Virus record (IMG/VR): IMGVR_UViG_3300046171_000008
Span: 1 to 54,923 of that record
From: a virus
Taxonomy: Duplodnaviria; Caudoviricetes
Direction: 5' to 3' (one strand)
Length of the DNA stretch: 54,923 bases
This document shows positions 1,317 through 31,850 of this stretch, piece by piece (position 1 is the first letter of the stretch; the number at the start of each line of letters is the position of its first letter). The notes under the pieces were generated by a model. That model was not told where the DNA came from. It made no database searches and saw only the letters and a program-made list of their open reading frames with translations. Position numbers and translations under genes: made by a program.

Positions 1317-1946
1317 ATGTCATTCGCAGAAATGTTTAAACCTAAAGGTAGATATAAAGCAGAGTTAGAAGAACTACGTAAAAAAGGACGTAGTTTTAAT
1401 TTAGGGTCTGTAATTGACTTTCTTGTAAATAAACCTACATTTAAACCTGACCTAACGGGTAAACGTAAACGGAATGCAGCACGTATTGCAGCAGAAAGCA
1501 TGGTCAATCGTGCTACATCGCAAGGTGGTCGATCTCGTGAGCAGGTAATTGAGCAGCGTCAAAAGCGGCTGGCAGCTAAGTCTGCAGCGCAAGGTGGTGG
1601 TTCTGTATTGTCTAAGAGAAAGAAAAGTACTAGTAAAAAAGCTGCTAGTGAGGAATCAGCACAGCGCGGTGCAGTAAGAAGTGCAGCTAAAGCAAAGACA
1701 GCTAAAGAAGCGCGTAAGGGTCCACCACAGCGTAAAGCCACGACAGTGACAAAGAAAGTGACACCACCAAAGGCAAAGCCTAAGATGTACACGACTATTG
1801 ATCCAAAAACAGGTAAGCTGGTGGATAAAAAGGTAACAGCGGCACAGCATCTTGCAAATCTTGATAAGTTTAAGGCACGTAAAAAGGCACAGGATTTGAT
1901 TAAGTCAGCCGCAAAAGCATCTATGAAGAAAAAAGGAAAGAAATAA
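1317..1946 (+). CDS. Lys/Ala-rich basic protein
   Basis: 209-aa ORF with AGGAG RBS; histone-H1-like composition. Confidence 0.7.
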   Translation: MSFAEMFKPKGRYKAELEELRKKGRSFNLGSVIDFLVNKPTFKPDLTGKRKRNAARIAAESMVNRATSQGGRSREQVIEQRQKRLAAKSAAQGGGSVLSKRKKSTSKKAASEESAQRGAVRSAAKAKTAKEARKGPPQRKATTVTKKVTPPKAKPKMYTTIDPKTGKLVDKKVTAAQHLANLDKFKARKKAQDLIKSAAKASMKKKGKK

Positions 1947-2293
1947 TGGACCTTAAATCAAAATCAGATTCACAGCTACGTAACATGCTGAACAAAGATA
2001 GTGGATACAGTGCTAATGAAGTGCGGTCTGTACTCGCTGAAATGAAGTCACGTGGTTTGCCTACACCGCCCGCAAAGATGGTGACAGGTGGTCGTAAGGC
2101 TAAAGACGTGGACATTACACTGCCTACACCAAAGCCTAAAAAGAAGACTGCCATGATGCGTGGCGGTATGGCTAATGGCAAGGTACACATGTATGCTGCA
2201 GGTGGTTCTGTCACAGAGAACCCCGGACTGAAGGCACTTAAAGCTAGTGGGCCAAAGGGCATGGAAGCCTACAATAAAATTACAGGTAAGTAA
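1946..2293 (+). CDS. Basic protein with three xxGG motifs
   Basis: 115 aa; MVTGG, MMRGG, YAAGG; TAATG coupling on both sides. Confidence 0.75.
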   Translation: MDLKSKSDSQLRNMLNKDSGYSANEVRSVLAEMKSRGLPTPPAKMVTGGRKAKDVDITLPTPKPKKKTAMMRGGMANGKVHMYAAGGSVTENPGLKALKASGPKGMEAYNKITGK

Positions 2294-2874
2294 TGGCTCC
2301 CAGAGTACCAAGAAAAAAAGGTCAACCTGCAAAGTCTAAGAAGCATAGTGATCTGTACACAGACGAAGACCCTAAAGGAACTATAAAGGGTTTAAAGTTT
2401 GCTACAGTGAAAGATGCTGAAGCTAGTGTGCGTAAAATTAAAGCGTCAGACAGAACTGATGCACACAAGACACAGGCTGCTATAGCTATGGAACAACGAG
2501 CAAAGGTTGCTGGCAAGATTGCAGCAGCATCTGTGTTTCGTAAGTTTATAGAAAGTCAAAAGAAAAAAACTATGACTAAAAAGAAAACTACCAAGAAGAA
2601 AATGGCAGTTGGCGGTGTTGCAAATAAACGTAACTACCGTAAAGAGTACGACAACTACCACGGTAAGCCAGAACAAATTAAGAGGCGTGACAGCCGTAAT
2701 GCTGCACGTAACTCTCTTAAAAAAGCTGGTGTAAATGTAGCGGGTAAGGATGTAGCGCACAAGAATGGCAATCCTCGTGACAATAGCCGTGGTAATCTTA
2801 CTTTGCAAAGGGCTTCTCAGAACAGGTCTTTTGCAAGAACTAAGACAGCAGGTAAGCGGAACAGACGTGCATAA
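2293..2874 (+). CDS. Two-domain basic protein: HSDLYTDEDP domain plus C-terminal HNH-like domain
   Basis: C-terminal DVAHKNGNPRDNSRGNL resembles an HNH motif; linker has KKMAVGG. Confidence 0.6.
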   Translation: MAPRVPRKKGQPAKSKKHSDLYTDEDPKGTIKGLKFATVKDAEASVRKIKASDRTDAHKTQAAIAMEQRAKVAGKIAAASVFRKFIESQKKKTMTKKKTTKKKMAVGGVANKRNYRKEYDNYHGKPEQIKRRDSRNAARNSLKKAGVNVAGKDVAHKNGNPRDNSRGNLTLQRASQNRSFARTKTAGKRNRRA

Positions 2875-3412
2875 GATTGAAGCTGACATACGTAAATGGT
2901 CAAATGATTTTCTTGAAGTACCCAATGCGAAGCTGAATGGCCTACCCCCATGCCCGTATGCAAAACAGGCGTGGCTAGATGGTAAAGTTACTTTTAGCAT
3001 CAATACAGGTATAGATGGACTAATACAATCTGTACGTGAGTTTGATACACACAACTACGACATTGTAGTGTGGGCTAATGAAGAACTGCCAAACATGGAA
3101 TACCTAGATGGTCTATGTGACGGCATGAATGAATTAATGTCTATAGCTGGCATTGATATGCACCTAATGGTGTTTCATCCAGACTACGATGCTGAAAAAG
3201 CTGGGCTGGACTTTTTAGTAGAAGATGGTATCGTAGATGATTCCCTAGAATACTGCATGGTATTTGTGCAGCGACTATCTGTGCTGGACGATGCAGCATT
3301 GAGTTTAGAAAAGAGTGGATACTATTTACATTTTCCTGTAGAAGTATTTCACTCATTAGTTATAGACAGACGGAGATTAAGAAATGAAAGGCAAGACAAA
3401 AGTAGCATCTAA
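2867..3412 (+). CDS. DUF1415-like protein
   Basis: PCPYA and VFHPDY motifs; GTG start inferred. Confidence 0.6.
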   Translation: MHKIEADIRKWSNDFLEVPNAKLNGLPPCPYAKQAWLDGKVTFSINTGIDGLIQSVREFDTHNYDIVVWANEELPNMEYLDGLCDGMNELMSIAGIDMHLMVFHPDYDAEKAGLDFLVEDGIVDDSLEYCMVFVQRLSVLDDAALSLEKSGYYLHFPVEVFHSLVIDRRRLRNERQDKSSI

Positions 3413-3524
3413 AAAAATGATGCGTGGCGGTGTAGCTGCAAAGAAAATGCGTGGTGGCGGTATGGCTAAAATGGCATCAAAGAAAAAAATGATGCGCGGT
3501 GGAATGGCTAAGAAGAAGAAGTAA
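3384..3524 (+). CDS. 46-aa protamine-like peptide with three GG-motif units (absent from the ORF track)
   Basis: MKGKTKVASKKMMRGGVAAKKMRGGGMAKMASKKKMMRGGMAKKKK; GGAG RBS at 3372; TAATG overlap with 3524. Confidence 0.8.
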   Translation: MKGKTKVASKKMMRGGVAAKKMRGGGMAKMASKKKMMRGGMAKKKK

Positions 3525-3883: not shown

Positions 3884-3893
3884 GAGACAGGAG

Positions 3894-4172
3894 ATGAACC
3901 GTGTCACTAAAAAACCAGCCGCTAAAAAGAAAACCACACAAGCTAGAACGAAAACGAAACAGACTAGAACGGTTAAACTTGCGGCGGGTGGTGCGCCAAA
4001 GAGCAAAAGCAGAGTTAATGAAGCTGGCAACTATACTAAGCCCGGAATGAGGAAGCAACAGTTTAACCGCATTAAGGCTGGTGGCAAAGGCGGCGCACCC
4101 GGACAGTGGTCGGCGAGAAAAGCCCAGATGCTTGCCAAGGCTTACAAGTCAGCAGGTGGTGGCTACAAATGA
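3894..4172 (+). CDS. DUF5872-like N-terminal half (GQWSARKAQ)
   Basis: NYTKP...KGG.PGQWSARKAQMLAKAYKSAGGGY. Confidence 0.65.
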   Translation: MNRVTKKPAAKKKTTQARTKTKQTRTVKLAAGGAPKSKSRVNEAGNYTKPGMRKQQFNRIKAGGKGGAPGQWSARKAQMLAKAYKSAGGGYK

Positions 4173-6431: not shown

Positions 6432-6798
6432 ACAGCTAACAGCAAAACAACAAGTATTTTTGAATGCGCTTTTCGATGAAGCAGGAGGTAGTGTAATCTT
6501 AGCTAAGAAGATTGCAGGTTACGCTGACACAAGTTCTACATCTGAAATTGTTAAAGGATTGAAAGAAGAAATACTAGAAGCCACACAGCTATATATGGCA
6601 CGTAATGCACCACAGGCTGCAGTTGCTATGGCAGGTGCGTTGATGGACCCGACTGAACTTGGCATTCGTGATAAGATGTCTGCCGCTAAAGAACTGCTTG
6701 ACCGTACTGGTCTGGTAAAGACTGAGAAGATGCAAGTAGAAGCATCGGGCGGTGTAATGCTTATGCCACCTAAAGCTGTCGTAGAGGATGATGACTAA
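6424..6798 (+). CDS. Terminase small subunit (probable)
   Basis: LTAKQQ.FL HTH start, AGY, AAKELLDRTG; upstream of TerL. Confidence 0.7.
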   Translation: MARQLTAKQQVFLNALFDEAGGSVILAKKIAGYADTSSTSEIVKGLKEEILEATQLYMARNAPQAAVAMAGALMDPTELGIRDKMSAAKELLDRTGLVKTEKMQVEASGGVMLMPPKAVVEDDD

Positions 6799-7295
6799 TG
6801 ACAAACCCATTTAAAGCCCGTACAGAAGGAACTAAAGACAAACCACTGTCTCCTTATGAAAAAAAGTTAAAAAAACTAAAACAAAAAAATAAACAAAAAA
6901 CTGAAGACGCTAATTTCAGTGTATCAGCAGGAAAGTTTGGCGATAAAAGTAGTACTTTAAGTGATATTGCTAATAAACTTGGTATTACATTAAAGTCTTT
7001 AAAAAAAGAAAATCCACAAATAAAAGACTTAAATAAAATATCAAAAAATCAAAAAATTAATGTTCCCCTACGTAGGCAAACTTTTTTTGAGAAATACATA
7101 GCTGGCCCTAAAACAAAACCATCCACTCGTGAAGTAGTAACAGGCAAAGATAAAAAAGAACAACTGGCTGTAAAAAAAGGTGCAGAAGGTAAAGTCTATA
7201 AAGGTATGTCTAAAAAAGATATGGCTGCAATAACACTTGACTATCGTGTAGGTGGTATGGTAAAATCTACAGTAGACAATAGAAAAAAGAAATGA
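6798..7295 (+). CDS. Basic LysM-domain protein
   Basis: TLSDIANKLGITLKSLKKENPQIKDLNKISKNQKINVP is a LysM pattern. Confidence 0.75.
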   Translation: MTNPFKARTEGTKDKPLSPYEKKLKKLKQKNKQKTEDANFSVSAGKFGDKSSTLSDIANKLGITLKSLKKENPQIKDLNKISKNQKINVPLRRQTFFEKYIAGPKTKPSTREVVTGKDKKEQLAVKKGAEGKVYKGMSKKDMAAITLDYRVGGMVKSTVDNRKKK

Positions 7296-9141: not shown

Positions 9142-11289
9142 ATGGATGAAGATGATATTATGATTGAAGACGATGCAATTGCATTGGAAGACACAGATGA
9201 CTCTGTTGTTGAAGATGCAGAAATTGCTTCAATTATTCCATTTATTAACGAGAAGTATCAGCGTTCAGAAGACTACCGCGAACAAGACGAAGACCGTTGG
9301 CTACGTGCTTATCGTAACTACCGTGGCTTGTATGGTCCAGACGTGCAGTTTACTGAGGCAGAGAAGTCTCGTGTATTTATCAAGGTAACAAAGACAAAGA
9401 CGCTGGCAGCTTACGGACAGATTGTAGATGTCCTGTTTGCAAATCAGCGTTTTCCTTTATCTGTAGACCCAACTGAACTGCCAGAAGGCGTAGTTGAGGA
9501 TGTTAGCTTTGACCCACAAGAGCCAGAGCAACTGCGTGGAGAAACTGCGTTGTCTACTAGCCCGTATGGTTTTGCTGGTGATGGCAATGATTTGGCACCC
9601 GGCGCAACAGCACAGTCTCTGCAAGAGAAGCTGGGTGTAGTACAAAATAAACTAGAGCCTGTACAGGAAAAACTTAAAGAAGGTCCGGGTAAGACACCTA
9701 CAGCAATTACATTTAGTCCTGCACAAATTGCTGCAAAGAAAATGCAAAAGAAAATCCATGACCAGCTTGAGGAGTCAGGTGCTAGTAAGCACATGCGTAA
9801 TTCTGCATTTGAGATGGCGTTGTTTGGCACAGGCGTTATGAAGGGTCCATTTGCTGTAGACAAAGAGTATCCTAATTGGAATGATGATGGTGAGTATGAT
9901 CCTAGATTCAAAACCGTTCCGCAAGTACAGCATGTATCTGTTTGGAACTTTTATCCTGACCCTGATGCGAATAGCATGGATGAAGCGCAGTACGTAATTG
10001 AACGGCATAAGATGTCACGTACACAGTTGCGCGGTTTGAAAAAGCGTCCATATTTTCGTGGACAAGTTATTGATGAGGTAATTCAAATTGGTGAAAACTA
10101 TACTAAAAAATATTGGGAAGATGATTTATCCGATTATGCTCCTGAGTCCTCTATTGACCGCTTTGAGGTACTTGAATATTGGGGTACAGTGGATATTGAC
10201 ATGCTTGAAGAGCAAGATATCGAAATACCGGAAGAACTAAAAGACTTTGATGAACTACAAGCAAACGTATGGATTTGTAATGATAAACTTATTCGTATGG
10301 TTCTGAACCCATTCAAGCCTAGTAAAATTCCGTATCATGCTGCGCCATATGAACTGAACCCATACTCATTTTTTGGAGTGGGTATTGCAGAAAACATGGA
10401 CGACACGCAGACATTGATGAATGGTTTCATGCGTATGGCTGTGGACAATGCCGTACTGTCAGGCAATTTGATTATGGAACTAGATGAAACTAATCTGGTT
10501 CCGGGTCAAGACCTGTCACTATATCCGGGTAAGGTATTCCGTAGGCAGGGCGGCGCACCGGGTCAAGCTATCTTTGGCACAAAGTTTCCTAACGTGTCTA
10601 GTGAGAACATGATGCTGTTTGATAAGGCACGTCAGCTATCAGATGAAAGTACAGGCTTGCCTAGTTTTGCTCATGGGCAGACAGGTGTTACAGGTGTAGG
10701 GCGTACTGCGTCAGGCATCTCTATGCTTATGGGTGCTGCCAGTGGTAGCATTAAGACTGTCGTTAAGAACGTAGACGATTATTTGCTGCGTCCTTTGGGT
10801 GAAGGCTTCTTCCGTTTTAATATGCAGTTTGACTTTGACCCAGAAATTAAGGGTGACTTAGAAGTTAAGGCACGTGGAACAGAAAGCCTGATGGCTAATG
10901 AAGTACGTAGCCAACGCCTGATGCAGTTCTTGCAGGTAGCAAGCAGCCCAGCACTTGCACCTTTTGCTAAGTTCCAGTATGTAATCCGCGAGATTGCATC
11001 TTCATTGGACTTGGACCCCGACAAAGTAACCAACAATATGGATGAAGCTGCTCTGCAAGCAGAGATTATGAAAGGCTTCCAAGCCCCTGCACAGCCAGTA
11101 GGACCAGAAGGCGCAGCACCAGCGGGTGCAAACCCAATGGACCCAACAGGAGCAGGTGGTGGTAATATAGGTACAGGACAAGTTCCTATGCCGGGTGAAC
11201 AAGGATTTAGTGCAAATGGACAAACAGCAGATACTCAGCCGCCTCAAGCCGCTGGTGGGCAACAACCGCCAATGGGAGGCGTTCAATAG
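9142..11289 (+). CDS. Portal protein
   Basis: 715 aa directly after TerL; ALFGTG, FYPDP, GRTASGISML motifs of P22-like podoviral portals. Confidence 0.88.
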   Translation: MDEDDIMIEDDAIALEDTDDSVVEDAEIASIIPFINEKYQRSEDYREQDEDRWLRAYRNYRGLYGPDVQFTEAEKSRVFIKVTKTKTLAAYGQIVDVLFANQRFPLSVDPTELPEGVVEDVSFDPQEPEQLRGETALSTSPYGFAGDGNDLAPGATAQSLQEKLGVVQNKLEPVQEKLKEGPGKTPTAITFSPAQIAAKKMQKKIHDQLEESGASKHMRNSAFEMALFGTGVMKGPFAVDKEYPNWNDDGEYDPRFKTVPQVQHVSVWNFYPDPDANSMDEAQYVIERHKMSRTQLRGLKKRPYFRGQVIDEVIQIGENYTKKYWEDDLSDYAPESSIDRFEVLEYWGTVDIDMLEEQDIEIPEELKDFDELQANVWICNDKLIRMVLNPFKPSKIPYHAAPYELNPYSFFGVGIAENMDDTQTLMNGFMRMAVDNAVLSGNLIMELDETNLVPGQDLSLYPGKVFRRQGGAPGQAIFGTKFPNVSSENMMLFDKARQLSDESTGLPSFAHGQTGVTGVGRTASGISMLMGAASGSIKTVVKNVDDYLLRPLGEGFFRFNMQFDFDPEIKGDLEVKARGTESLMANEVRSQRLMQFLQVASSPALAPFAKFQYVIREIASSLDLDPDKVTNNMDEAALQAEIMKGFQAPAQPVGPEGAAPAGANPMDPTGAGGGNIGTGQVPMPGEQGFSANGQTADTQPPQAAGGQQPPMGGVQ

Positions 11290-11431
11290 TTACTTAGATG
11301 ATGCAATTATGCAACACCATAAAGTAATGGAACAATCGACAGACACTGTTATGTTACACAGGCAACAAGGTGCCATAGCAGTTTTACGTAAACTAAAGCA
11401 ACTTAGGGATGAAATTAATGGCTCTGGATAA
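11216..11431 (+). CDS. Small conserved protein after portal
   Basis: HRQQGAIAVLRKL motif typical of portal-adjacent genes. Confidence 0.7.
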   Translation: MDKQQILSRLKPLVGNNRQWEAFNSYLDDAIMQHHKVMEQSTDTVMLHRQQGAIAVLRKLKQLRDEINGSG

Positions 11432-12983
11432 ACAAATGGAAATGTTTGATGACGGTGGTCTTATGGACGAAGGCGGCACAGTAGACCCTGTATCTGGTAA
11501 TGACGTGCCACCCGGCTCTACTCAAGAAGAAGTACGAGATGACATTCCCGCACAGCTTAGTGAAGGTGAATTTGTATTCCCTGCTGACGTAGTGCGTTAC
11601 ATTGGTCTAGGCAACTTGATGCGTATGCGTCAGGAAGCTAAGATGGGCCTAAAGTTAATGGATCAAATGGGCCAGATGGGCAATAGCGAAGAAGCTACTA
11701 TGCCAGATGACTTGCCATTTGATATTAATGATCTTGACATGGAAGACGAAATAGACGATAATAACGAATTAGAAATGCAAGTAGGTGGTTTTGTACAGCC
11801 TACACAACAACAACAACAGATGGGTATCAGTGGATATCAGCAAGCTGCAGCACCAACAACAGGAGTAGCAGCAGTGCCACAGCAAGCTGCATCACAGCAA
11901 TACGTACAACCTGTACAGCCTGTGCAAGCAGCAGTACCAACAATGCAAGCGTATAAACCAGAGGAAGTACCTACATTCCAGCAGACCATCGGTGACGATG
12001 CATTTGGAACTTATGATGAATTACGTCAATATCGCAATGAAGCAGGTAACATTCTTAATGTACCATTCCGTAATGGTCAGCCTATCAGCCCAATCCCAGA
12101 AGGCTACACATTTGTAGACCCAGAAGAGACTGCCACAGAAGAGGTAACAACTACACCTACAACGCCACAGACTACTACTGTACGTGAAGAAGGTGGAGAT
12201 GACGAAGCACGGCAACGCCGCGAGGAAGAAATGTATGGTCCGGGTGGTGGTAGACTTGGAGTAAAAGGAAAAACTTATGGTATTTCTTTTGATGGTGTAG
12301 GACTATTAGAAGGAAGGGGTATGTTAACTGGTTTAGCTTTGAGTGGAGAAATTCCTGATAAGTATGCTACTAGCGTATCTGTAAATATAAAACGTGGGGA
12401 TGACGAATTTGCAGTCAGGGGTGATGCTTATAATGAATTGAAAGAAGTAATTGAAGACTCTGGTGCAAATTCTCCTGCTGCTGAAAATAAATTGGCTGAG
12501 TTGCGTAGGCGATCTAATGCAATTAAAGAAGCAAAACGTAAAGCGCAAGAAGAGTTTGATAGGCTTGCTAAACTAAAAGAAAACGAAGAAGAACGTAAAC
12601 GCACAAAAGTACAGCCTTCATCGGATGACCCCGGAGGTAAAGGACCGTTTGGTACCGGATATACTTACGACCCTAAATCCGTAAAAGAAACCACAGACTA
12701 TGTAGAATCAGGATACCAAGAAGCCTCTGGAGGTGGAGGAGGCGGTTTTGGAGGTGGTAGCCCATCCTCTAGTTCAAGTTCTTCTAGCAGCAGTTCATCA
12801 GGTAGTAGTAAATCTTCTAGTTCGGGTTCATCCAGTGGTGGTTCATCTAAATCTAGTGGAGGCAGCTACGGCGCAAAAGACTCAACTGGGGGTTCTAGAC
12901 GATTCGATGAAGGTGGTTTAGCATCTAAACCTAAACCCAAAACTAAAAAGATGAAGCGTGGTGGATTAGCTTCTAAAAAATAA
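11409..12983 (+). CDS. Head-module protein with N-terminal GEFV domain and five xxGG motifs; candidate maturation protease or cargo adaptor
   Basis: DDIPAQLSEGEFVFPADVVRYIGLGNL; lies between portal and scaffold; Q-rich and S/G-rich low-complexity tracts; function is inference. Confidence 0.55.
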   Translation: MKLMALDKQMEMFDDGGLMDEGGTVDPVSGNDVPPGSTQEEVRDDIPAQLSEGEFVFPADVVRYIGLGNLMRMRQEAKMGLKLMDQMGQMGNSEEATMPDDLPFDINDLDMEDEIDDNNELEMQVGGFVQPTQQQQQMGISGYQQAAAPTTGVAAVPQQAASQQYVQPVQPVQAAVPTMQAYKPEEVPTFQQTIGDDAFGTYDELRQYRNEAGNILNVPFRNGQPISPIPEGYTFVDPEETATEEVTTTPTTPQTTTVREEGGDDEARQRREEEMYGPGGGRLGVKGKTYGISFDGVGLLEGRGMLTGLALSGEIPDKYATSVSVNIKRGDDEFAVRGDAYNELKEVIEDSGANSPAAENKLAELRRRSNAIKEAKRKAQEEFDRLAKLKENEEERKRTKVQPSSDDPGGKGPFGTGYTYDPKSVKETTDYVESGYQEASGGGGGGFGGGSPSSSSSSSSSSSSGSSKSSSSGSSSGGSSKSSGGSYGAKDSTGGSRRFDEGGLASKPKPKTKKMKRGGLASKK

Positions 12984-13055
12984 TCTACAATATGTTGGCT
13001 ACTCATCCCCCATCCCCGACAGGTTGGCTACGGTGGCCCCAACAAGGAGAATGAC

Positions 13056-13922
13056 ATGAACGATACAATCATGGCAGAAGAAATGAAGACTACGCCAAAG
13101 GCGGCATTTGTTAATAAACCTTACACGCAAGAAGAACGAGTTAAGCGCGATGAGGAAGAACTAGAACAGCTAATGAAAGAACGTGATGGTGAAGAAGAAG
13201 CACCAGAGCAAGAAGCTGAACCTACTAGCGCAGAAGAGAAAACATTTAAAAAGCGTTACTCTGACCTACGCCGACATCAACAGAAACAAGCAGAAGAGTT
13301 TAAGTCTGAACTTGCAGAACTAAAGCGTCAGCTTTCGGATGCTACAAAGAAAGAAATGAAACTGCCCAAGTCTGATGAGGACATTGAAGAGTGGGCAAAA
13401 GAATACCCAGACGTAGCAGCTATCGTTGAAACAATTGCAATGAAGAAAGCTAGTGAACAAGCAACTGCACTAGAAGAACGAATCAAAGCAATTGATGAGA
13501 TGCAGAATACCGCAACTAAAGAAAAAGCAGAAGCATCTCTGATGCAGATGCATCCAGATTTCGGCGAGATTCGTGACAGCGATGACTTCCACGAGTGGGC
13601 CGAAGAACAACCTAAGTGGGTACAGGACGCACTGTACGAGAATGATAATGACGCACGGTCAGCAGCACGAGCAATTGACCTCTACAAAGCAGATAGAGGC
13701 ATTGGCAAAAAGTCTAAGAGCAAGAATGATAAGGGTGCAGCAGAGGCAGTTGCGCCGAAAGATAAAAGAAGTAAGCCGCAAACTGATGAGGCTTCCACGT
13801 ATCTGAAAGAGTCAGATGTAGAAAAAATGTCAGCACATGAATACGAGAAACATGCTGATGAGATTATGGATGCAATCCGTAGTGGTAAGTTTATCTACGA
13901 TTTATCTGGTTCTGCACGATAA
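13056..13922 (+). CDS. Capsid scaffolding protein
   Basis: Acidic coiled coil with FKKRYSDLRRH and HPDF...F.EW; upstream of MCP. Confidence 0.75.
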   Translation: MNDTIMAEEMKTTPKAAFVNKPYTQEERVKRDEEELEQLMKERDGEEEAPEQEAEPTSAEEKTFKKRYSDLRRHQQKQAEEFKSELAELKRQLSDATKKEMKLPKSDEDIEEWAKEYPDVAAIVETIAMKKASEQATALEERIKAIDEMQNTATKEKAEASLMQMHPDFGEIRDSDDFHEWAEEQPKWVQDALYENDNDARSAARAIDLYKADRGIGKKSKSKNDKGAAEAVAPKDKRSKPQTDEASTYLKESDVEKMSAHEYEKHADEIMDAIRSGKFIYDLSGSAR

Positions 13923-13929
13923 AAAAGAG

Positions 13930-13957
13930 TTGACAAGTAGTTATTAATAAGTATAAC
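13930..13957 (+). promoter_or_regulatory. Sigma70-like promoter upstream of MCP
   Basis: TTGACA-16 nt-TATAAC. Confidence 0.6.
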
Positions 13958-14164
13958 TATAGTCAAGTGTAGTGTAAGCAGGGTCGCTCCTTGCTTACCT
14001 AACAATCCGCAAACGACAAAAATCTTCAAGATTACCTGAATAACATGGCCTACTAAGTATGTCGGCGGCCACTGACTTACAAGGTACACCCTACGTTATA
14101 CAGCCTCTGCAAAGAATTGTACTGTTTGCATCTGTGAAAAATCCAAAACAATAGGAGATGGATT

Positions 14165-15220
14165 ATGGCTTTCCCAAGAGCACCGGGTTATAACAACTTG
14201 CCGAATGGCAATTTTAGCCCAGTAATTTACTCCAAACAGGTGCAGCTTGCATTCCGCAAGGCCGCTGTTTGTGACGCGATTACGAATAACGACTACTTTG
14301 GTGAAATCGCAAACTTTGGTGATTCAGTTAAAATCATCAAGGAACCCGAAATCACTGTTAAGGCTTACGAGCGTGGTACTACCATTACTCCGCAAGACCT
14401 TGACGATGAAGACTTCACACTGACCGTTGACAAAGCTAACTACTTTGCTTTTAAAGTTGACGACATTGAGGAAGCGCATTCGCACGTAAACTTTGAGTCT
14501 CTCTCAAGCAACCGTGCTGCATACCGTCTTGCTGACCAGTTTGACCAAGATGTTCTTGGCTACCTGTCAGGCTTTAAGCAGTCTGCAATCAGTGGCACAC
14601 CTGACACCGTAAATAACGTAATTAACGGTACTAAGTCAGTTACAACTGCTGGTACTGACGAACTGCTGTCAAGCATGAAGCTGAATGCATCCGACTTCAA
14701 CGCAGGTAATGCTGCTAACTGTGTCGGTCTGAAGCCTCGCGCATCAGAAGCTGTTCCAACTGCTGCTGGTACTACTAACCCACTGACTGTGATTGCACGT
14801 ATGGGTCGTCAACTCGACCTGCAAAACGTGGACTCTCAGGGCCGTTGGTTGGTCATTGACCCAGTGTTCGTTGAACTGCTGAAAGATGAAGACTCACGTT
14901 TGTTTGATTCAGACTTTGGTGGTTCTGGACTTCAGAACGGTTTGATTTTGAATAACCTGCATGGATTTAAAGTCCATGTTTCTAACAACCTGCCTAAAGT
15001 TGGTACTGGTCCTTCCACAACTGGTGGAACCAATGCTAATAACTTTGGTGTGATTGTTGCTGGTCATTCATCTTCAGTCGCTACTGCTGACCAAATCAAC
15101 AAGACTGAAACTTACCGCGACCCGGACAGCTTTGCCGATATCGTCCGTGGTATGCATCTGTATGGCCGCAAGATTCTCCGTCCAGAGGCTCTTGTTAACG
15201 CCAAATACTGTTTGGTTTAA
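14165..15220 (+). CDS. Major capsid protein
   Basis: 351 aa; FSP.IYSK, GDSVKI, F.VDDIE, RDPDSFADIVRG.HLYG.K motifs; strong RBS. Confidence 0.92.
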   Translation: MAFPRAPGYNNLPNGNFSPVIYSKQVQLAFRKAAVCDAITNNDYFGEIANFGDSVKIIKEPEITVKAYERGTTITPQDLDDEDFTLTVDKANYFAFKVDDIEEAHSHVNFESLSSNRAAYRLADQFDQDVLGYLSGFKQSAISGTPDTVNNVINGTKSVTTAGTDELLSSMKLNASDFNAGNAANCVGLKPRASEAVPTAAGTTNPLTVIARMGRQLDLQNVDSQGRWLVIDPVFVELLKDEDSRLFDSDFGGSGLQNGLILNNLHGFKVHVSNNLPKVGTGPSTTGGTNANNFGVIVAGHSSSVATADQINKTETYRDPDSFADIVRGMHLYGRKILRPEALVNAKYCLV

Positions 15221-26935: not shown

Positions 26936-29005
26936 ATGGCGATGTTCAAAGCATTTAAACCTGAAGCAATGAATAAGATTGCACAGGCTATGGGCTATTC
27001 TGGTGACATGGGCCAGTTCCAACAATACATTGAAGATGACCCAGCACGTAAGGCACGAATGAATGGCTTTGTCCAAGCTGCACAGCAGATGGCAAAGGGT
27101 GGTGTAGTGAAGATGCAACAAGGTGGTATATTGTCTCAAGGTCCATCTTTTTATACTCCTACATCTGGAGAAACGCTTGTTCAAAATGACCCTACGCCTA
27201 CAGCCATTAGGTCAACAGTAATGCCTCAAACTGGAGGTATGTTTGCATTTAAATCTGACGGTACACGTGTAACTGTTCCACAAGGATATTTTGACCCACG
27301 CACAGCACAACAAGACACACCACCTGCTGCACCTACACCCCAAAGTGATGTAAAGAACGTAGCTATTGGTGATGTAACTACACAGCGTATGTATGCACCC
27401 GGTCTACCGCAGGGCGGTGTAACTACCGCTGCTATGACACCAACAGGTCCGGGTCAAGAAGTGCAGCAAGGTACTGGCGCACTTACAGGTGCAGTTGCAG
27501 TGCCTACAGCTATGGCACAGACAGCTATAGCTGCCCCACAACAAGAGTCACAAGCAAATGTAATGGAAGCCGCTACAGCCGCACCAGCAGTCGATGCAGC
27601 TATGAATGCTACACAGGCAGCACAGGCTACCGTAGACCCCCGCGCACAGGTCACAGCGGCCCAGCAAACAGCATCTAGCGTAGGTAATCTACAGGCTGCA
27701 CAGGGCAATGCCACACTTATCAACAATCCTGTACAACGTCAGATTCAAGCAGGTGAACTTATCTCTGGTGCTGCTGATGCCCAGACTGCTGCTACCTTTA
27801 CTGAACAAGTACAAGCTGCAGAAGCTACACCATCTACGCAAGCTACTGTACAGGGCCAGCTTGCTTCTCTAACAGCCAACTTTGATGCTGCCAATCCACC
27901 TGCATGGGCCGCTGGTGCTATGCGTAATGCTACACAAGCAATGGCTGCACGTGGACTAGGCGCAAGTAGCCTCGCTGGTCAGGCAATTGTACAGGCCACG
28001 CTTGAGGCTGCTCTCCCCATTGCACAGGCTGATGCAGCAGTAACTGCACAGTTTGAGGCACAGAACCTATCTAACAGACAACAACGTGCTATGCTTTCTG
28101 CACAGCAACGTGCCACATTCATGGGTCAAGAGTTTGACCAAGCCTTTCAATCACGTGTTCAGAACTCTGCACGTATTGCCGATATAGCTAACATGAACTT
28201 TACTGCTGAACAACAGGTACAGCTAGAGAACTCTCGTGCTGCTAATACAATGAACCTTAACAACTTGTCTAACTCACAGGCAATGACAATGGCAGAAGCA
28301 TCTGCACTAGCACAGATGGATGCATCTAATCTTAACAATCGTCAACAGGCTGCAGTAAATAATGCACAGGCATTCCTGCAGACCGATATGGCTAACTTGT
28401 CTAATCAACAACAGACAGAGTTGTTTAAGGCACAACAGCGTACACAGTCTATGTTTACGGACCAAGCAGCTACCAATGCAGCACGTCAATTCAATGCATC
28501 TAGTCAGAACCAAGTTGACCAGTTCTTTGCCAATCTGGCACAGCAGACATCACAGTTTAATGCCACACAGCAAAATGCACAGGCACAGTTTAATGCAGGT
28601 CAGGCTAATACAGTAGAACGCTTCAATGCTGAGATGAATAATCAGCGTGACCAGTTCAATGCACAGAACCAGATTGTAATTGCACAGTCAAATGCACAGT
28701 GGCGTAGGCAAATTGCTACAGCAGATACCGCTGCAGTTAATCGTGCTAATGAAATTAATGCTGCTGCTGTTCTTGATATTAGTAAGACCGCTTACGATAA
28801 TCTGTGGCAGTACTATGCAGACAGCATGGAGTATGCATGGGATGCTGCAGACAGTGAACTTGACCGTTTGAATAACTTGGCTGTAGCACAGCTTAGTGCA
28901 GATGCACAAGCAGCAGCAACAAAAGCAGCAAGCAGTTCTGCTGCTGGTAGCGCATTAGGCGGTTTGATTGGCACACTTGGTAGTGCATTTATTGAGTTTG
29001 GATAA
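26936..29005 (+). CDS. Internal virion (ejection) protein, A/Q/N-rich
   Basis: 689-aa helical A/Q-rich protein with RGLGASS and QFNA repeats; N-terminal MAKGG and MQQGG. Confidence 0.7.
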   Translation: MAMFKAFKPEAMNKIAQAMGYSGDMGQFQQYIEDDPARKARMNGFVQAAQQMAKGGVVKMQQGGILSQGPSFYTPTSGETLVQNDPTPTAIRSTVMPQTGGMFAFKSDGTRVTVPQGYFDPRTAQQDTPPAAPTPQSDVKNVAIGDVTTQRMYAPGLPQGGVTTAAMTPTGPGQEVQQGTGALTGAVAVPTAMAQTAIAAPQQESQANVMEAATAAPAVDAAMNATQAAQATVDPRAQVTAAQQTASSVGNLQAAQGNATLINNPVQRQIQAGELISGAADAQTAATFTEQVQAAEATPSTQATVQGQLASLTANFDAANPPAWAAGAMRNATQAMAARGLGASSLAGQAIVQATLEAALPIAQADAAVTAQFEAQNLSNRQQRAMLSAQQRATFMGQEFDQAFQSRVQNSARIADIANMNFTAEQQVQLENSRAANTMNLNNLSNSQAMTMAEASALAQMDASNLNNRQQAAVNNAQAFLQTDMANLSNQQQTELFKAQQRTQSMFTDQAATNAARQFNASSQNQVDQFFANLAQQTSQFNATQQNAQAQFNAGQANTVERFNAEMNNQRDQFNAQNQIVIAQSNAQWRRQIATADTAAVNRANEINAAAVLDISKTAYDNLWQYYADSMEYAWDAADSELDRLNNLAVAQLSADAQAAATKAASSSAAGSALGGLIGTLGSAFIEFG

Positions 29006-29009
29006 AAAT

Positions 29010-29225
29010 ATGCTAACTAATCCTACACCTATATTACATCAGAACTTGTCACTGGCTATGAAGAATATGCCAGAAGAAACTCCTATGACTAAAAATACTT
29101 TGATGGGGCCACCTAAAAAACAGGTGACAAAGGCAAAAGAAGATGATATACTACAACCTTCAAGACGTGTAGCTTCTTACATTGAAACAATTCAAAAGAA
29201 ACGTGAGGAAATTAAGAATGGCTGA
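29010..29225 (+). CDS. Hypothetical protein
   Basis: ORF fills the gap between internal virion genes. Confidence 0.55.
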   Translation: MLTNPTPILHQNLSLAMKNMPEETPMTKNTLMGPPKKQVTKAKEDDILQPSRRVASYIETIQKKREEIKNG

Positions 29226-29742
29226 CATGATGATGCAACCTAAACTTGATGCACCTATTCCGGGTCATTCCTTAACTAAGGAACTTGGCTCACGTCCTTG
29301 GCAGCAACCTGCACAGTACACAACTGTAGAGGATGCGCTGGACTATTATATTCCACGACTTGAATCTGATGAAGTTACAAGTCAACTTCTTGATGTACTT
29401 GAAATGGGTATTCCTGTAACTACAGTAGCTAATACAATGCAGCTTGGTAGTGTCATGGAAGGCAAGCACAGTGTTGATGTAGGTATGCTTATATTGCCTG
29501 TACTGGTTGAGTTGATTATGTTAATTGCTGATAGCGCAGGTGTTGAATATACTACTGGTCTTGAAAAAGATAAAGAAATTCGTGGTTCTCTAGTAGATTT
29601 AGCAGTTAGTAAATTTAAAGAAGAAAAAGATAAAACAAAAAATAATGATGCTAGTGAAGGTGATGGTGGTAAATTTGTTGCCGACAGCATGAAGCAAGCT
29701 GCCGAAGATCGTGTCGGTGGATTAATGTCTAGGGGTACATAA
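29218..29742 (+). CDS. Conserved virion-module protein
   Basis: APIPG.SLT.ELG.RPWQQP motif; ends VGGLMSRGT. Confidence 0.7.
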   Translation: MADMMMQPKLDAPIPGHSLTKELGSRPWQQPAQYTTVEDALDYYIPRLESDEVTSQLLDVLEMGIPVTTVANTMQLGSVMEGKHSVDVGMLILPVLVELIMLIADSAGVEYTTGLEKDKEIRGSLVDLAVSKFKEEKDKTKNNDASEGDGGKFVADSMKQAAEDRVGGLMSRGT

Positions 29743-31850
29743 TGTCTCTTTTTGGTTTAGGTTCATTTGGTGAAGGTTTTGTTACAGGCTTTGCTACGGA
29801 GGCAAACGAAGCACTAAAAAAGAGTGTTAATCGTATTAATACTCGTGTAGACAAACTTAAACAATTTCAAGTAGAACGTGCTATTAAAGAGCAAGACAAA
29901 CGTGCTTCAGAAATAGAGGAACACAAAGAGGCACTAGCAGAAGCATACGCATTATTTGGGGGTGACGAAAATGCAGAGCAAGCTATTGCTTATGCTGGCG
30001 GTCTTCTTAAAGAACGTGGTGGTCTTGCTGCATTTAAAAGTAGGATTGCTGAACTGCGTGAAGCAAAAGATAACGATGTAGATATAAATTCATACTTTGG
30101 ACGTGCGGAAACAGATGCACCTTATAATGCTACATTAGATGATATAGCAGAAGCTGCAGTAGGTGGACGTTCTACCTTGGCAAGTGATTATCGTTTACCT
30201 AAAGGCATGGGTGATGATAGCAGTTTAATAGGTACAGTACTTGGTAAAAAGATAGATGTAGTCGGTATGGCTATGGAGCAAGCAGGTGAAGAAATTCGTG
30301 CGTTATACGGTGCGGATGTAGACACACTTGTTAAACTGCCTACAATCACATTCAAAGCTGAAGAGTTTTCTTTACGTGATAAAAGTCCTGCTGAAAGACT
30401 AGATTACGCAAATAAAAAACTAGCGTTACCACGTGTGCAAGCAGATGAAGCCCTTAAATCAAAATATACAAGTATGCGAGATGAACAAGAGTTAGCGGTT
30501 ATCAATACTAAAGATGAAGCAGCTACTATTGAAATTCTTGATGCCCAAATTAATCGTGCTGAACCGGGTTCTGATGAAGAAGCTACGCTTCTCTCTCAAC
30601 GTAAAAACGTAAATAGAAATATGCAATTAAAAGCTGTTGCAGATCAGCCTGTAAAAGAACTTAATTTAAGAATTGAGTATGCAATGGCAGATGCTCTTGA
30701 AGAGTCTGAACGTACAGGTAATCCAATTGATCGTAGTCAAGTTGAAATACTAGAACAAGAACTGGCTTCTCTTACAGGAGATGTACCAAGTGTTCAGAGT
30801 GAAATTGATGAAGAAAGAGAAGAACTCCGGCGTAGGTCTGACCCATCATACACAGGAACAGATAAACTTACAATAGGTTCCGATGAGTACAATAACGAAC
30901 TTGCTCGTATTGAAGCTAGACAAAATGCACACGATTCAGTAAAGCCTATAAAACCTTTAAACCCTAGATCAGTAGATGTGTTTCAAGATACTTTTCTTAA
31001 CGCTATTGCAAGAGCAGAAATAGATGCAATAAAGCAGTTTTCGGATACAGAACAAACTGTTTATCAAGGTATAAAGGATTTAGCTAAAACCCCTGCAGAA
31101 CTAGAACGCCTACGACAAAAAGGGCAAGATGATGCAAAAGCAGGTAATAACGCTTTAAATGAAAGACTTGCTATTTATGACAAAGTTGCTGCTGCATCTC
31201 GTTCTGTAACGAATACCGTTATAGCCCGTAGTTTAAATAACTATAATAAAAAAGATCACGCTGAAGCATGGATTGCTGCAGCAAATCTTGGATACATTGA
31301 TCCTGCTGACGCAACAAGTACTCCGACTGCCACTGATACCTCTGCACAGACTGCTGCTGCATTGGGTGTTGAAATAACTGCAGGTGCTGCCACAGCAGCA
31401 GACGTTAAAAGGCAGTTTCCCGATACTGTGGAAGGTGCTAATGCCATGATTAATCAGTTGTATAAAAATAAATTGAAGGTAGAAGATGCGATTAAAATGG
31501 CTAAAGAGGACGGGTATAGTCCTGAGTTTTTGGCTGTTCTTGAGCAAGAGAAAGGCCAAGATCCTGCAGGGGTCGCACAATTGGTTATTCAAGACACGGA
31601 TATAGACGTTAATGATGAAGAGGTTCGTCAAATAGCTGAAGCAAAACGTATTATAGGGGATGTTGCAGGATTTGATTCAAAAGAAATTCGTGCTATTGCA
31701 AAAGAACTAGGCGTAACTCCAGAAAAAGCTGCGGAACTTCATGCAGCAGCAACAGAGGAAATAAAAGAGGCGCGTAAAGAAAACCGTGTGTCTAGGAGAA
31801 GTGGAAGAACTAACAATCGCTATACTGGTGGATTAATGTCGAGGAAGTAG
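29742..31850 (+). CDS. Internal virion (ejection) protein
   Basis: 702-aa helical protein; SFGEGFVTGFA start; ends TGGLMSRK. Confidence 0.65.
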   Translation: MSLFGLGSFGEGFVTGFATEANEALKKSVNRINTRVDKLKQFQVERAIKEQDKRASEIEEHKEALAEAYALFGGDENAEQAIAYAGGLLKERGGLAAFKSRIAELREAKDNDVDINSYFGRAETDAPYNATLDDIAEAAVGGRSTLASDYRLPKGMGDDSSLIGTVLGKKIDVVGMAMEQAGEEIRALYGADVDTLVKLPTITFKAEEFSLRDKSPAERLDYANKKLALPRVQADEALKSKYTSMRDEQELAVINTKDEAATIEILDAQINRAEPGSDEEATLLSQRKNVNRNMQLKAVADQPVKELNLRIEYAMADALEESERTGNPIDRSQVEILEQELASLTGDVPSVQSEIDEEREELRRRSDPSYTGTDKLTIGSDEYNNELARIEARQNAHDSVKPIKPLNPRSVDVFQDTFLNAIARAEIDAIKQFSDTEQTVYQGIKDLAKTPAELERLRQKGQDDAKAGNNALNERLAIYDKVAAASRSVTNTVIARSLNNYNKKDHAEAWIAAANLGYIDPADATSTPTATDTSAQTAAALGVEITAGAATAADVKRQFPDTVEGANAMINQLYKNKLKVEDAIKMAKEDGYSPEFLAVLEQEKGQDPAGVAQLVIQDTDIDVNDEEVRQIAEAKRIIGDVAGFDSKEIRAIAKELGVTPEKAAELHAAATEEIKEARKENRVSRRSGRTNNRYTGGLMSRK

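What the first reader, a model, noticed from the sequence alone, without database searches (positions are those of the whole stretch)
1946..31850. Candidate GG-directed maturation or cargo-tag system: a hydrophobic-x-x-Gly-Gly motif shared by 9 unrelated late proteins
Seen: the motif [MFYL]-x-x-G-G, often preceded by K/R and followed by a small or hydrophobic residue, recurs in otherwise unrelated proteins. 1946..2293 has MVTGG, MMRGG, YAAGG; 2293..2874 MAVGG; 3384..3524 MMRGG x2 and MRGGG; 3894..4172 LAAGG; the LysM protein YRVGG; 11409..12983 FDDGG, MDEGG, MQVGG, FDEGG, MKRGG; 26936..29005 MAKGG, MQQGG. Looser versions close 29218..29742 (RVGG) and 29742..31850 (YTGG). Motifs sit at termini or in linkers. 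Known: adenovirus protease cuts (M/I/L)XGG-X in basic core proteins, and ASFV pS273R cuts GG-X. Inference: a phage-wide signal for proteolytic processing or for sorting cargo into the head. I know of no description of this for these podoviruses.
Basis: partly seen in the sequence, partly recalled or inferred. Interest (0 to 1): 0.85.

Follow-up and report, generated by a model that had tools for sequence, protein, structure and literature searches.

The report
Gly-Gly address tag on phage accessory proteins
In this abundant type of ocean phage, a short conserved peptide built around two glycines marks a particular set of small basic, cell-wall-binding and probably injected proteins; it is most likely a docking or sorting label, but it could be a cutting site, and neither has been shown.

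Summary
The window is a complete HMO-2011-type podophage genome (81% nt identity to HMO-2011).

**Enrichment.** The loose pattern [MFYL]xxGG is only modestly enriched in late proteins: 23 observed against 13-15 shuffled. The sharper form, hydrophobic-x-x-G-G-[LVMIF]-[AVMLI], is 13 against about 1 (0 of 2000 shuffles). It is absent from the replication arm.

**Conservation.**
- HMO-2011 itself repeats the enrichment.
- So do 137 related metagenomic loci: 263 observed against 31 expected. The replication arms of 80 loci show none (8 against 11).
- The motif is not phage-wide. It sits in about eight accessory families and is absent from terminase, portal, scaffold, capsid and tail proteins.
- It lies at domain borders and termini, often inside portable C-terminal cassettes with Lys/Arg tails.

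**Cutting.** No protease was found. The hydrophobic residue is at P5, not the P4 that I recall for adenain.

**Reading.** Uncleaved docking or sorting tag (0.4); cleavage site (0.3).

The scan noted a similar motif before in uncultured crAss-like phages. Two unrelated cultured marine phages that I tested lack it.

The parts
1946..2293 (+). 115-aa basic protein (net +13) with three motifs: MVTGGRK (nt 2078-2098), MMRGGMA (2153-2173), YAAGGSV (2192-2212). A conserved C-terminal module NPGLKALK..AYNKITGK follows.
   Evidence: In the 12 sequences the double motif KMMRGGMANGKxHMYAAGGSV is kept. 92% of 12 family members carry the refined motif.
2293..2874 (+). 193-aa basic protein that fuses two modules. 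MAVGGVA (nt 2602-2622) lies in the Lys-rich joint. The C-module is weakly HNH_3-like.
   Evidence: in relatives the N-module (3 loci) and the C-module (7 loci) are separate ORFs without the motif. Pfam HNH_3 E 9.8e-5, below the cut-off.
3384..3524 (+). 46-aa Lys-rich mini-protein (18 K+R, no D/E) made of three motif units: KKMMRGGVA, KKMRGGGMA, KKMMRGGMAKKKK*.
   Evidence: 14 of 14 family members carry 2-5 units, with indels of whole units. The HMO-2011 counterpart at 50628-50780 is not annotated in the record.
3894..4172 (+). 92-aa basic protein. A variable Lys-rich leader ends in KLAAGGAP (nt 3978-3998), just before the conserved module KSKSRVNEAGNYTKP...GQWSARKAQ.
   Evidence: read by eye from the alignment: 15 of 16 orthologues with a leader of about 30 aa or more have a hydrophobic-xxGG just before the module, at shifting positions. 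0 of 4 leaderless forms have one.
6798..7295 (+). 165-aa LysM protein ending in the portable C-terminal cassette DYRVGGMVKSTVDNRKKK* (motif nt 7242-7262).
   Evidence: LysM, Pfam E 2.4e-5. The same tail is found on 15 distinct proteins with at least 8 unrelated N-termini in related loci.
11409..12983 (+). 524-aa modular protein encoded just after the portal. An invariant-rich core (SGNxVP...SEGEFVFPADVVR) is fenced by FDDGGLMDEGG (nt 11445-11483) and MQVGGFV (11775-11795). The C-terminus carries the double tail FDEGGLASKPKPKTKKMKRGGLASKK* (12903-12971).
   Evidence: Relatives carry Phage_lysozyme2, Phage_lysozyme, Hydrolase_2, Phage_L5_gp82 or DUF7178 modules in this protein. 6803 homologues of the N-module. 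AF2 pLDDT 66, largely extended.
26936..29005 (+). 689-aa Q/N/A-rich putative internal virion protein. An N-terminal three-helix domain (residues 9-53) is followed at once by the tandem motif MAKGGVVKMQQGGIL (nt 27089-27133) and then by disorder.
   Evidence: AF2. 31 of 31 intact orthologue N-termini have at least 2 motifs. Of 135 representatives at 50% identity or less, 134 have at least 1 and 115 have at least 2.
29218..29742 (+). 174-aa acidic putative internal protein ending in RVGGLMSRGT* (nt 29710-29739), a G-L-M-x-R C-terminal tail.
   Evidence: GLM in the last 12 residues of 42 of 46 distinct orthologues.
29742..31850 (+). 702-aa putative internal protein ending in RYTGGLMSRK* (nt 31818-31847).
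   Evidence: GLM tail in 11 of 20 distinct orthologues.
9142..15220 (+). Context. Portal 9142-11289, whose first 40 aa hold 15 D/E and 1 K/R. Acidic helical putative scaffold 13056-13922. P22-type major capsid protein 14165-15220. None carries the motif. They are candidate binding partners only by inference.

Best explanation
The motif is a selected short linear motif: hydrophobic (M/F/Y/L) at P5, two variable residues, Gly-Gly, then two hydrophobic or small residues. It often forms the core of longer portable cassettes that end in Lys/Arg-rich tails.

It marks the accessory late proteins of HMO-2011-type phages:
- a cluster of small basic proteins;
- a LysM protein;
- the modular protein after the portal, which in relatives carries wall hydrolases;
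- the putative ejection proteins at the end of the late operon.

Most likely it is an uncleaved docking or sorting tag. Exposed at termini and domain borders, often in two or three copies, it would bind a repeated site on an assembly component. The acidic scaffold or the portal is my guess. These proteins would then be built into the procapsid and later leave with the DNA.

Shown: the motif, its enrichment, its conservation, its portability and its placement. Inferred: that these proteins are in the virion, that the motif binds something, and what it binds.
For: **1. Real and specific.** Window counts are. HMO-2011 repeats them: MxxGG 8 against 2.2 (1 of 1000); refined 8 against 1.0 (0 of 1000). 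In 137 related loci the refined motif is 263 against 30.9 (shuffle maximum 45 in 200). The replication arms of 80 loci give 8 against 11.4.

**2. Profile over 656 distinct GG contexts in four motif families.** Hydrophobic residues make up 51% at P5, 43% at P1' and 42% at P2', against a background of 25%. In 426 contexts from control families the figures are 12%, 31% and 29%.

**3. Conservation continues after the Gly-Gly to the stop codon.**
- The cassette D[FY]RKGGMV[LI]S[ST][VI]DNRK[NK]K* is on 15 distinct proteins with at least 8 unrelated N-termini.
- GGLASKK* tails are on 14 and 7 proteins after the portal.
- GLMxR tails are in 42 of 46 orthologues, although the first Gly is kept in only 10 of 46.
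- C-terminal tails number 67 against 1.6 expected.

**4. Kept where there is little to cut off.** 24 of 28 proteins of the post-portal family with the core at the N-terminus keep the upstream motif behind a leader of only 7-32 residues.

**5. No protease.** None by Pfam, PHROGs or NCBIfam and no HExxH. The capsid protein matches major-head PHROGs, and the HMO-2011 orthologue is annotated as P22 coat type. It has a separate helical acidic scaffold candidate. By established knowledge of P22 and T7 this assembly class needs no protease.

**6. The tagged class fits cargo.** Relatives of the post-portal protein carry lysozyme and hydrolase modules. In crAss001 a cargo protein is tethered to the portal by a dedicated domain (PMC10172136, passages).

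**7. No fixed fold.** AF2 places the motif directly after a small helical domain and in low-confidence, non-globular stretches, as expected for a linear motif.
Against: - No receptor is identified. The one complex prediction I tried never ran.
- No direct evidence was available that any tagged protein is in the virion. The HMO-2011 paper is not held.
- The motif sits at the joints of fused modules. 2293-2874 joins two modules that are separate, motif-less genes in relatives. Extra N-terminal modules of the post-portal protein are joined through motif pairs, in 21 of 24 internal forms. 3894-type proteins have the motif only when they have a leader. This is what polyprotein cut sites look like.
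- Tandem sites and very basic substrates recall adenovirus core precursors.
- The refined pattern was defined after seeing the data.
- Counts over orthologues are not independent. One conserved DNA polymerase site alone gives MxxGG 75 against 24.7 in the early-arm control.
- Enrichment is weak in the more distant relatives CRP-3, CRP-738 and HTVC103P: refined 3 against about 1.1 each.
Confidence: 0.4

Rival explanations
1. The motif is a proteolytic cut site. An unrecognised phage protease or a host protease cuts after Gly-Gly. That would release modules, leaders and basic tail peptides from polyprotein-like precursors during assembly or after ejection, as adenain does with basic core precursors.
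For: - The motif lies at module joints, and fused and split gene forms occur.
- 15 of 16 3894-type proteins with a leader have the motif at the leader-module border; 0 of 4 leaderless forms have it.
- Tandem sites occur 6-16 residues apart.
- The carriers are very basic, such as the 46-aa protein with 18 K/R.
- The sites lie in predicted disorder next to folded domains.
Against: - No protease domain appears in 40 late and 37 early ORFs and there is no HExxH.
- The 'protease' label of HMO-2011 gp04 rests on a 23-residue match, and none of the 27 window early ORFs scanned in that call matched that family.
- The hydrophobic residue is at P5. P4 is at background level: 19% against 25%, and 19 against 15 in the register control. 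The GG-directed proteases I recall (adenain, PLpro and deubiquitinases, C39) use P4.
- Strong conservation on the P' side up to the stop codon.
- At many termini a cut would remove only 5-30 residues.
- The capsid type is assembled without a protease in its known relatives (established knowledge).
Confidence: 0.3
2. The motif is not a sorting or cutting signal. It is a structural cap or hinge of Lys/Arg-rich effector tails that bind DNA, the membrane or the cell wall. These would act in lysis or after entry, for example through DNA condensation, outer-membrane disruption or wall anchoring.
For: - Five of the eight strongly basic small proteins at 1011-7295 carry it.
- The cluster lies beside the lysis genes: lysozyme 5940-6431, membrane proteins 4365-5057 and 5296-5679.
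- It is linked with LysM and wall hydrolases.
Against: - Acidic versions exist without basic flanks: FDDGGLMDEGG, EMQVGGFV.
- It is also present on large acidic proteins at the end of the structural operon.
- This reading does not explain why the same core recurs on unrelated modules.
Confidence: 0.2
3. The motif is a by-product at the DNA level. Short conserved nucleotide stretches at module borders would serve as recombination joints for module shuffling.
For: - The repeat finder links the coding units at 3411-3517 and 12945-12979 at 66-77% nucleotide identity.
- The motifs sit at shuffled joints.
Against: - Gly codons and the P5, P4 and P3 residues vary freely.
- The shared nucleotides are too few for homologous exchange.
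- The selection pattern is by residue class: M, F, Y or L at P5.
Confidence: 0.04
4. The pattern is chance or a product of composition in Gly-, Met- and Lys-rich low-complexity stretches.
For: - The loose pattern is only 23 against about 15.
- GG itself is somewhat enriched in late proteins: 113 against 88-97.
Against: - Local-window shuffles keep the local composition and still give 0 of 2000 for the sharper forms.
- The enrichment is specific to one register.
- Conservation holds in relatives down to clusters of 50% identity or less.
Confidence: 0.01

Closest known systems
Adenovirus protease (adenain, clan CE) sites in the basic core precursors pVII, pre-Mu and pVI. PMC4246237 was seen only in a search listing.
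   Same: - A Gly-Gly core with a nearby hydrophobic residue.
- Tandem sites.
- Very basic small carriers.
- Sites at termini and linkers.
   Different: - The hydrophobic residue is at P5, not P4.
- Hydrophobic residues are strongly preferred at P1' and P2'.
- No clan CE or other protease gene is present.
- This is a tailed phage with a P22-type capsid.
- No cut has been shown.
Capsid targeting sequence of phage T4 internal proteins and Alt (recalled): a short N-terminal peptide that directs proteins to the scaffolding core and is then removed by the prohead protease gp21.
   Same: A short portable peptide on unrelated, often basic proteins that end up inside the head. This is the function proposed here.
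   Different: - There is no sequence likeness.
- Here the tag is at N-termini, C-termini and internal joints, and often in several copies.
- No prohead protease is present.
Portal-tethered cargo protein C1 (gp45) of Bacteroides phage crAss001 (PMC10172136, passages read).
   Same: - A large, partly disordered internal protein.
- A dedicated domain holds it at the portal.
- It is expected to be ejected ahead of the DNA.
   Different: - No homology was detected.
- That paper mentions neither a Gly-Gly motif nor cleavage: 0 occurrences of 'cleaved' or 'proteolytic'.
- Tethering of the window's post-portal protein to the portal is only my inference.
Polyvalent proteins of phages and conjugative elements (Iyer et al. 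2017, PMC5512222, passages read).
   Same: The protein after the portal strings different enzyme modules (lysozymes, wall hydrolase, L5 gp82-like) onto one polypeptide that is likely packaged.
   Different: - Polyvalent proteins are said to be released by embedded peptidase domains (zincin-like and others). None is found here.
- The term 'linker' has 0 occurrences in that paper, and none of the 12 of 23 passages shown describes a junction motif.
Earlier notes of this scan: a [Y/M]xxGG joint motif in uncultured marine crAss-like phages (e1-6067091, e1-6100951, e1-6019228), and Gly-Gly-fenced basic tails in giant viruses (e1-5487290).
   Same: - The same five-residue core.
- The same placement at joints and before basic tails.
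- The same lack of a protease in the phage cases.
   Different: - A different phage lineage.
- These are unchecked AI notes.
- Two unrelated cultured marine phages that I tested show no enrichment: Cellulophaga phi14:2 (crAss-like), 10 against 12.9; Pelagibacter HTVC010P, 6 against 6.9.

Membership tests
Adenain-type (clan CE) maturation system | Substrate consensus with hydrophobic M/I/L at P4 before G-G or G-X-G (recalled consensus) | tested here: not met
   Hydrophobic share is 19% at P4 against a 25% background, but 51% at P5. The P4 register is 19 against 15, not significant.
Adenain-type (clan CE) maturation system | Virus-encoded clan CE cysteine protease (Peptidase_C5, C48, C57 or C63) | tested here: not met
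   No such Pfam hit in 40 late ORFs (E up to 0.01) or 37 early ORFs (E up to 0.001). PHROGs and NCBIfam are also negative. Remote folds were not excluded: only two structure predictions were available.
Adenain-type (clan CE) maturation system | Observed cleavage of precursors | not testable with these tools
   Needs virion mass spectrometry.
Double-glycine leader peptides cut by C39 peptidase transporters | A single N-terminal leader of 15-30 residues ending in Gly-Gly, with hydrophobic residues at -4, -7 and -12 (recalled) | tested here: not met
   The motifs are internal, tandem and C-terminal as well as N-terminal. The hydrophobic residue is at -5.
Double-glycine leader peptides cut by C39 peptidase transporters | A C39 peptidase in the phage or host | not tested
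   None in the window. Host genomes were not searched.
T4-type capsid targeting sequence | An N-terminal targeting peptide removed by a prohead protease | tested here: not met
   No prohead protease was found. The tags lie at both termini and internally. Whether it works like a targeting sequence remains open.
Polyvalent / modular packaged proteins | Several unrelated effector domains strung on one polypeptide encoded among virion genes | tested here: met
   Of 15 long orthologues of 11409-12983 scanned, 8 passed Pfam's cut-off for Phage_lysozyme2, Phage_lysozyme, Hydrolase_2, Phage_L5_gp82 or DUF7178, 1 had a weak Phage_lysozyme match just below the cut-off, and 6 had no hit. The window's own copy has no recognised enzyme domain.
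Polyvalent / modular packaged proteins | An embedded peptidase domain that releases the modules | tested here: not met
   No peptidase family in the 15 orthologues scanned or in the window. No HExxH.
Short linear docking motif (general class) | Short; in disordered or border regions; conserved as a pattern while shifting position; portable between unrelated proteins | tested here: met
   Position shifts in the 3894 family. Low-pLDDT context. The same cassette occurs on at least 8 unrelated N-termini.
Short linear docking motif (general class) | A defined binding partner | not testable with these tools
   The complex prediction never ran. No partner is known.

The most novel reading that the evidence does not exclude
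A tailed phage with a protease-free type of capsid nevertheless runs an adenovirus-like maturation system. An unrecognised phage or host protease with a new P5-hydrophobic Gly-Gly specificity would cut polyprotein-like cargo and DNA-binding mini-proteins inside the head of one of the ocean's most abundant phage groups.
Probability: 0.25. Interest if true: 0.85.

Novelty: new variant of a known kind. Interest (0 to 1): 0.6.

Why it matters
HMO-2011-type phages are described as dominant and broadly distributed in the ocean (PMC9038755, abstract), yet most of their late genes have no known function.

A shared tag gives these orphan genes one common, testable property. It predicts which proteins travel in the particle. 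It also gives a handle for loading reporters into capsids, or for finding the unknown reader, whether receptor or protease.

If the tag is cut, it would be a new protease specificity and a convergence between tailed phages and adenovirus-like or giant viruses. If it is bound, it would be a cargo address label in a podovirus that is simpler and more portable than those I recall for podoviruses.

Tried and rejected
1. **Complex prediction of the portal (alignment A2) with the N-module of the post-portal protein (A1).** I handed it in repeatedly. The queue was full or the machine gave no answer, and the cap was then declared used. No verdict exists.
2. **Protease hunt.**
   - Pfam, PHROGs and NCBIfam on all curated ORFs gave nothing, and there is no HExxH.
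   - 2867-3412, which lies among the tagged genes, resembles DUF1415/DUF6875 clusters of unknown function (Atlas). I did not fold it.
3. **Solved structures.** No relative was found for the post-portal protein, its N-module profile or the profile of the 26936-29005 N-terminus.
4. **AF2 models.** Both were low-confidence (pLDDT 66 and 61.5), so I ran no fold search.
5. **Cross-lineage generality.** It was not supported in the two unrelated marine phages tested. Modules 1946-2293 and the N-terminus of 26936-29005 are found only in HMO-2011-type records of the phage collection.
6. **Virion proteomics of HMO-2011.** The paper is not held (identifiers recalled). Supplements of the HMO-2011-type papers were not read and could bear on virion content.
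7. **DNA-level signal.** Rejected because of codon variation.
8. **Padloc and RNA searches.** Not run; they were not relevant.

Full report
**What the window is.** The 54,923-base window is a complete genome of an HMO-2011-type podophage.
- It is 81% identical in nucleotides to Puniceispirillum phage HMO-2011 over the packaging and capsid genes. It is related to the CRP roseophages and to some pelagiphages.
- It carries an exact 249-base repeat at both ends.
- Genes from about 600 to 35347 lie on the + strand. In order they are: a cluster of small, mostly basic proteins and lysis genes; the small and large terminase; the portal (9142-11289); a 524-aa protein of no known family (11409-12983); a helical acidic scaffold candidate (13056-13922); the major capsid protein (14165-15220); adaptor, nozzle and fibres; and four large proteins of no known family at 26936-35347.
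- By position those four resemble the internal or ejection proteins of T7-like phages. That resemblance is an inference.
- The - strand from 35365 to 54284 holds replication and nucleotide-metabolism genes.

On my curated ORF list (40 late ORFs, 11280 aa; 37 early ORFs, 5860 aa):

| Pattern | Late, observed | Late, shuffled | Shuffles reaching it | Early, observed / shuffled |
|---|---|---|---|---|
| [MFYL]xxGG | 23 | 13.1 (whole protein); 14.5-15.1 (12-30-residue windows) | 13 of 2000; 47-56 of 2000 | 3 / 4.8 |
| MxxGG | 12 | about 2.5 | 0 of 2000 | 1 / 0.9 |
| [MFYL]xxGG[LVMIF][AVMLI] | 13 (in 7 proteins) | about 1 | 0 of 2000 | 0 / 0.4 |

I defined the third pattern after seeing the data.

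The effect is specific to one register. A hydrophobic residue one place closer to the glycines is not enriched (19 against 15), and directly before them it is depleted (7 against 15). The Gly codons vary between instances, so the constraint is on the protein.

**Independent replication.**
- HMO-2011 itself shows the same enrichment: MxxGG 8 against 2.2 (1 of 1000); refined 8 against 1.0 (0 of 1000); nothing in its early arm.
- The more distant CRP-3, CRP-738 and HTVC103P show only 3 against about 1.1 each. Even so, the instances sit in the equivalent proteins: a small basic protein, the protein after the portal, and the first internal protein.
- In 137 related IMG/VR loci (1565 distinct products on the late strand), the refined motif occurs 263 times against 30.9 expected (maximum 45 in 200 shuffles). 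Of these, 67 lie within 15 residues of the C-terminus (1.6 expected) and 42 within the first 30 residues (3.8 expected).
- The replication arms of 80 related loci (884 products) give 8 against 11.4.
- These counts over relatives are not independent. In the early-arm control a single conserved DNA polymerase site makes MxxGG 75 against 24.7. The family table is therefore the fairer view.

**Family view.** The motif is concentrated in a few families.
- 1946-2293: 92% of 12 members.
- 3384-3524: 14 of 14.
- LysM protein 6798-7295: 3 of 3.
- 11409-12983: 96% of 54.
- 26936-29005: 65% of 49, a set that includes truncated ORFs.
- 3894-4172 carries looser forms: 0.68 per sequence against 0.15.
- 29742-31850 also carries looser forms: 1.05 against 0.46.
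- Terminase, portal, scaffold, capsid, adaptor and nozzle are at or below expectation. The portal gives 0.01 against 0.93.

The signal therefore marks a class of accessory proteins and is not phage-wide.

**Anatomy of the motif.** I compared 656 distinct Gly-Gly contexts from four motif families with 426 from control families.

| Position | Hydrophobic share, motif families (background 25%) | Hydrophobic share, control families |
|---|---|---|
| P5 | 51% (M, F, Y, L) | 12% |
| P4 | 19% | not listed here |
| P1' | 43% (L, M, V) | 31% |
| P2' | 42%, plus Ala | 29% |

The motif is thus hydrophobic-x-x-G-G-hydrophobic-[V/A/M], symmetric around the glycines.

- **At borders.** In the first internal protein, AF2 predicts a three-helix N-terminal domain (residues 9-53, pLDDT about 80). 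The tandem MAKGGVVKMQQGG follows directly, and then disorder. All 31 intact orthologue N-termini have at least two motifs there. Among 135 representatives at 50% identity or less, 134 have at least one and 115 have at least two.
- **Fencing a core.** In the protein after the portal, a core rich in invariant residues (SGNxVP...SEGEFVxPADVVR) is fenced by motifs. A motif lies upstream in 47 of 52 sequences, downstream in 49 of 52, and within the last 35 residues in 30 of 52. AF2 gives this region no confident globular fold (pLDDT 66).
- **Portable.** The C-terminal cassette D[FY]RKGGMV[LI]S[ST][VI]DNRK[NK]K*, which ends the window's LysM protein, is found on 15 distinct proteins with at least 8 unrelated N-termini.
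- **The two looser cases.** The C-termini of 29218-29742 and 29742-31850 belong to a G-L-M-x-R tail, kept in 42 of 46 and 11 of 20 orthologues. The first glycine is kept in only 10 of 46.

**What the tagged proteins are.**
- Relatives of 11409-12983 carry a tail lysozyme, a T4-type lysozyme, a SleB-type wall hydrolase, an L5 gp82-like domain or DUF7178 in the same polypeptide. Of 15 long orthologues scanned, 8 passed Pfam's cut-off, 1 had a weak lysozyme match just below it and 6 had no hit. This is the behaviour of a modular, probably packaged and ejected wall-breaching protein. It is comparable to polyvalent proteins (PMC5512222, passages) and to the portal-tethered cargo protein of crAss001 (PMC10172136, passages).
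- Eight small proteins at 1011-7295 are strongly basic, with net +11 to +39 per 100 residues. Five of them carry the motif in the window.
- The portal N-terminus (15 acidic residues in the first 40) and the scaffold candidate (net -20) are acidic. That makes them plausible partners for basic tags, but this is only an inference.

**Cut or bound?**

For cutting:
- The motif lies at the joints of fused modules. 2293-2874 joins two modules that are separate, motif-less genes in relatives.
- 21 of 24 post-portal proteins with extra N-terminal modules have a motif pair at the junction.
- 15 of 16 3894-type proteins with a leader have the motif at the border between leader and module, against 0 of 4 leaderless ones (read by eye).

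Against cutting:
- No protease is detectable by Pfam, PHROGs or NCBIfam in any curated ORF, and there is no HExxH.
- The 'protease' label on HMO-2011 gp04 rests on a 23-residue match, and none of the 27 window early ORFs scanned in that call matched that family.
- The capsid is of the scaffold-dependent P22 type. From general knowledge, that type assembles without proteolysis.
- The hydrophobic residue is at P5, whereas the Gly-Gly proteases I recall read P4.
- Conservation continues past the glycines to the stop codon.
- The motif is retained in 24 of 28 proteins in which only 7-32 residues precede it, and at C-termini where only 5-15 residues follow. Removing so little has no obvious use.

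I therefore favour an uncleaved docking or sorting tag (0.4) over a cut site (0.3). A structural cap for basic effector tails gets 0.2. The readings as a DNA-level recombination joint or as chance are minor.

**Generality and prior knowledge.**
- I found no description of the motif. The passages shown from the comparative paper on HMO-2011-type phages mention only the DNA polymerase CXXCXGXG motif, and 'protease' has no occurrence in that paper (PMC9038755).
- Earlier unchecked notes of this scan report a similar [Y/M]xxGG joint motif in uncultured marine crAss-like phages, and Gly-Gly-fenced basic tails in giant viruses.
- I tested two unrelated cultured marine phages. Pelagibacter HTVC010P gives 6 against 6.9, and the crAss-like Cellulophaga phi14:2 gives 10 against 12.9 in late genes. 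Neither shows enrichment.
- In my hands the system is therefore specific to this lineage. That points to a phage-encoded reader rather than a universal host factor.

**Verdict.** The mechanism is open and can be tested directly by virion mass spectrometry.

Noticed in passing
window 1-249 and 54675-54923: An exact 249-base direct repeat lies at the two ends of the window. The window is therefore a whole genome of 54,674 bases plus an overlap. The overlap could be a terminal repeat or the closure of a circular assembly.
   Followed up: partly
window 52110-54416 (five copies); 52927-52966 and 53273-53312: There are five copies of AAATATTTACCAGTAAATTTTT between the small leftmost genes of the replication arm, and beside two of them a pair of exact 40-base repeats. 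They are probably early promoters or operator sites.
   Followed up: no
L001/L082 (HMO-2011 record 50628-50780); window 3384-3524: The Lys-rich mini-gene with three motif units is conserved in 14 of 14 related loci. Its HMO-2011 counterpart has no annotated CDS in the RefSeq record.
   Followed up: partly
window 48387-48806 (-) and related loci: The wall hydrolase (Hydrolase_2) is a separate gene on the replication strand here. In HMO-2011 the L5 gp82-like protein is likewise a separate gene on that strand (gp02). In relatives both occur as modules fused into the protein after the portal.
   Followed up: partly
window 22454-23823 and 18623-19658: The tail-spike or fibre gene 22233-24767 contains 12 copies of a 44-base unit spaced at multiples of 51 bases, that is, a 17-residue repeat. 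Fibre gene 18014-19807 has three copies of a 280-base unit.
   Followed up: no
window 31853-35347, residues 3-8 and 33-38: The N-terminus of the 1164-aa last late protein repeats the peptide FRDLLL twice within an acidic stretch. Its meaning is unknown.
   Followed up: no
window 12234-12254 and 27404-27424: Two further Gly-Gly sites are conserved in orthologues but lack the hydrophobic P1' and P2' residues: [KMI][YF]GPGGGR in the post-portal protein and LPxGGVT in 26936-29005. They seem to be different elements.
   Followed up: no
window 2867-3412: A 181-aa acidic protein (phrog_28122) lies among the tagged basic genes. Its nearest Atlas clusters are viral, and a minority of their members carry DUF1415 or DUF6875. 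Its function is unknown and I did not fold it.
   Followed up: partly
L001 2779-2961 (HMO-2011 gp04): The 'protease' annotation of this 60-aa protein rests on a 23-residue match to a 43-position PHROG profile. It is unlikely to be a protease.
   Followed up: yes
window 42487-44526 (-): The family A DNA polymerase carries a partial DnaJ CXXCXGXG insertion. This is the known hallmark of HMO-2011-type phages (PMC9038755, passages).
   Followed up: no
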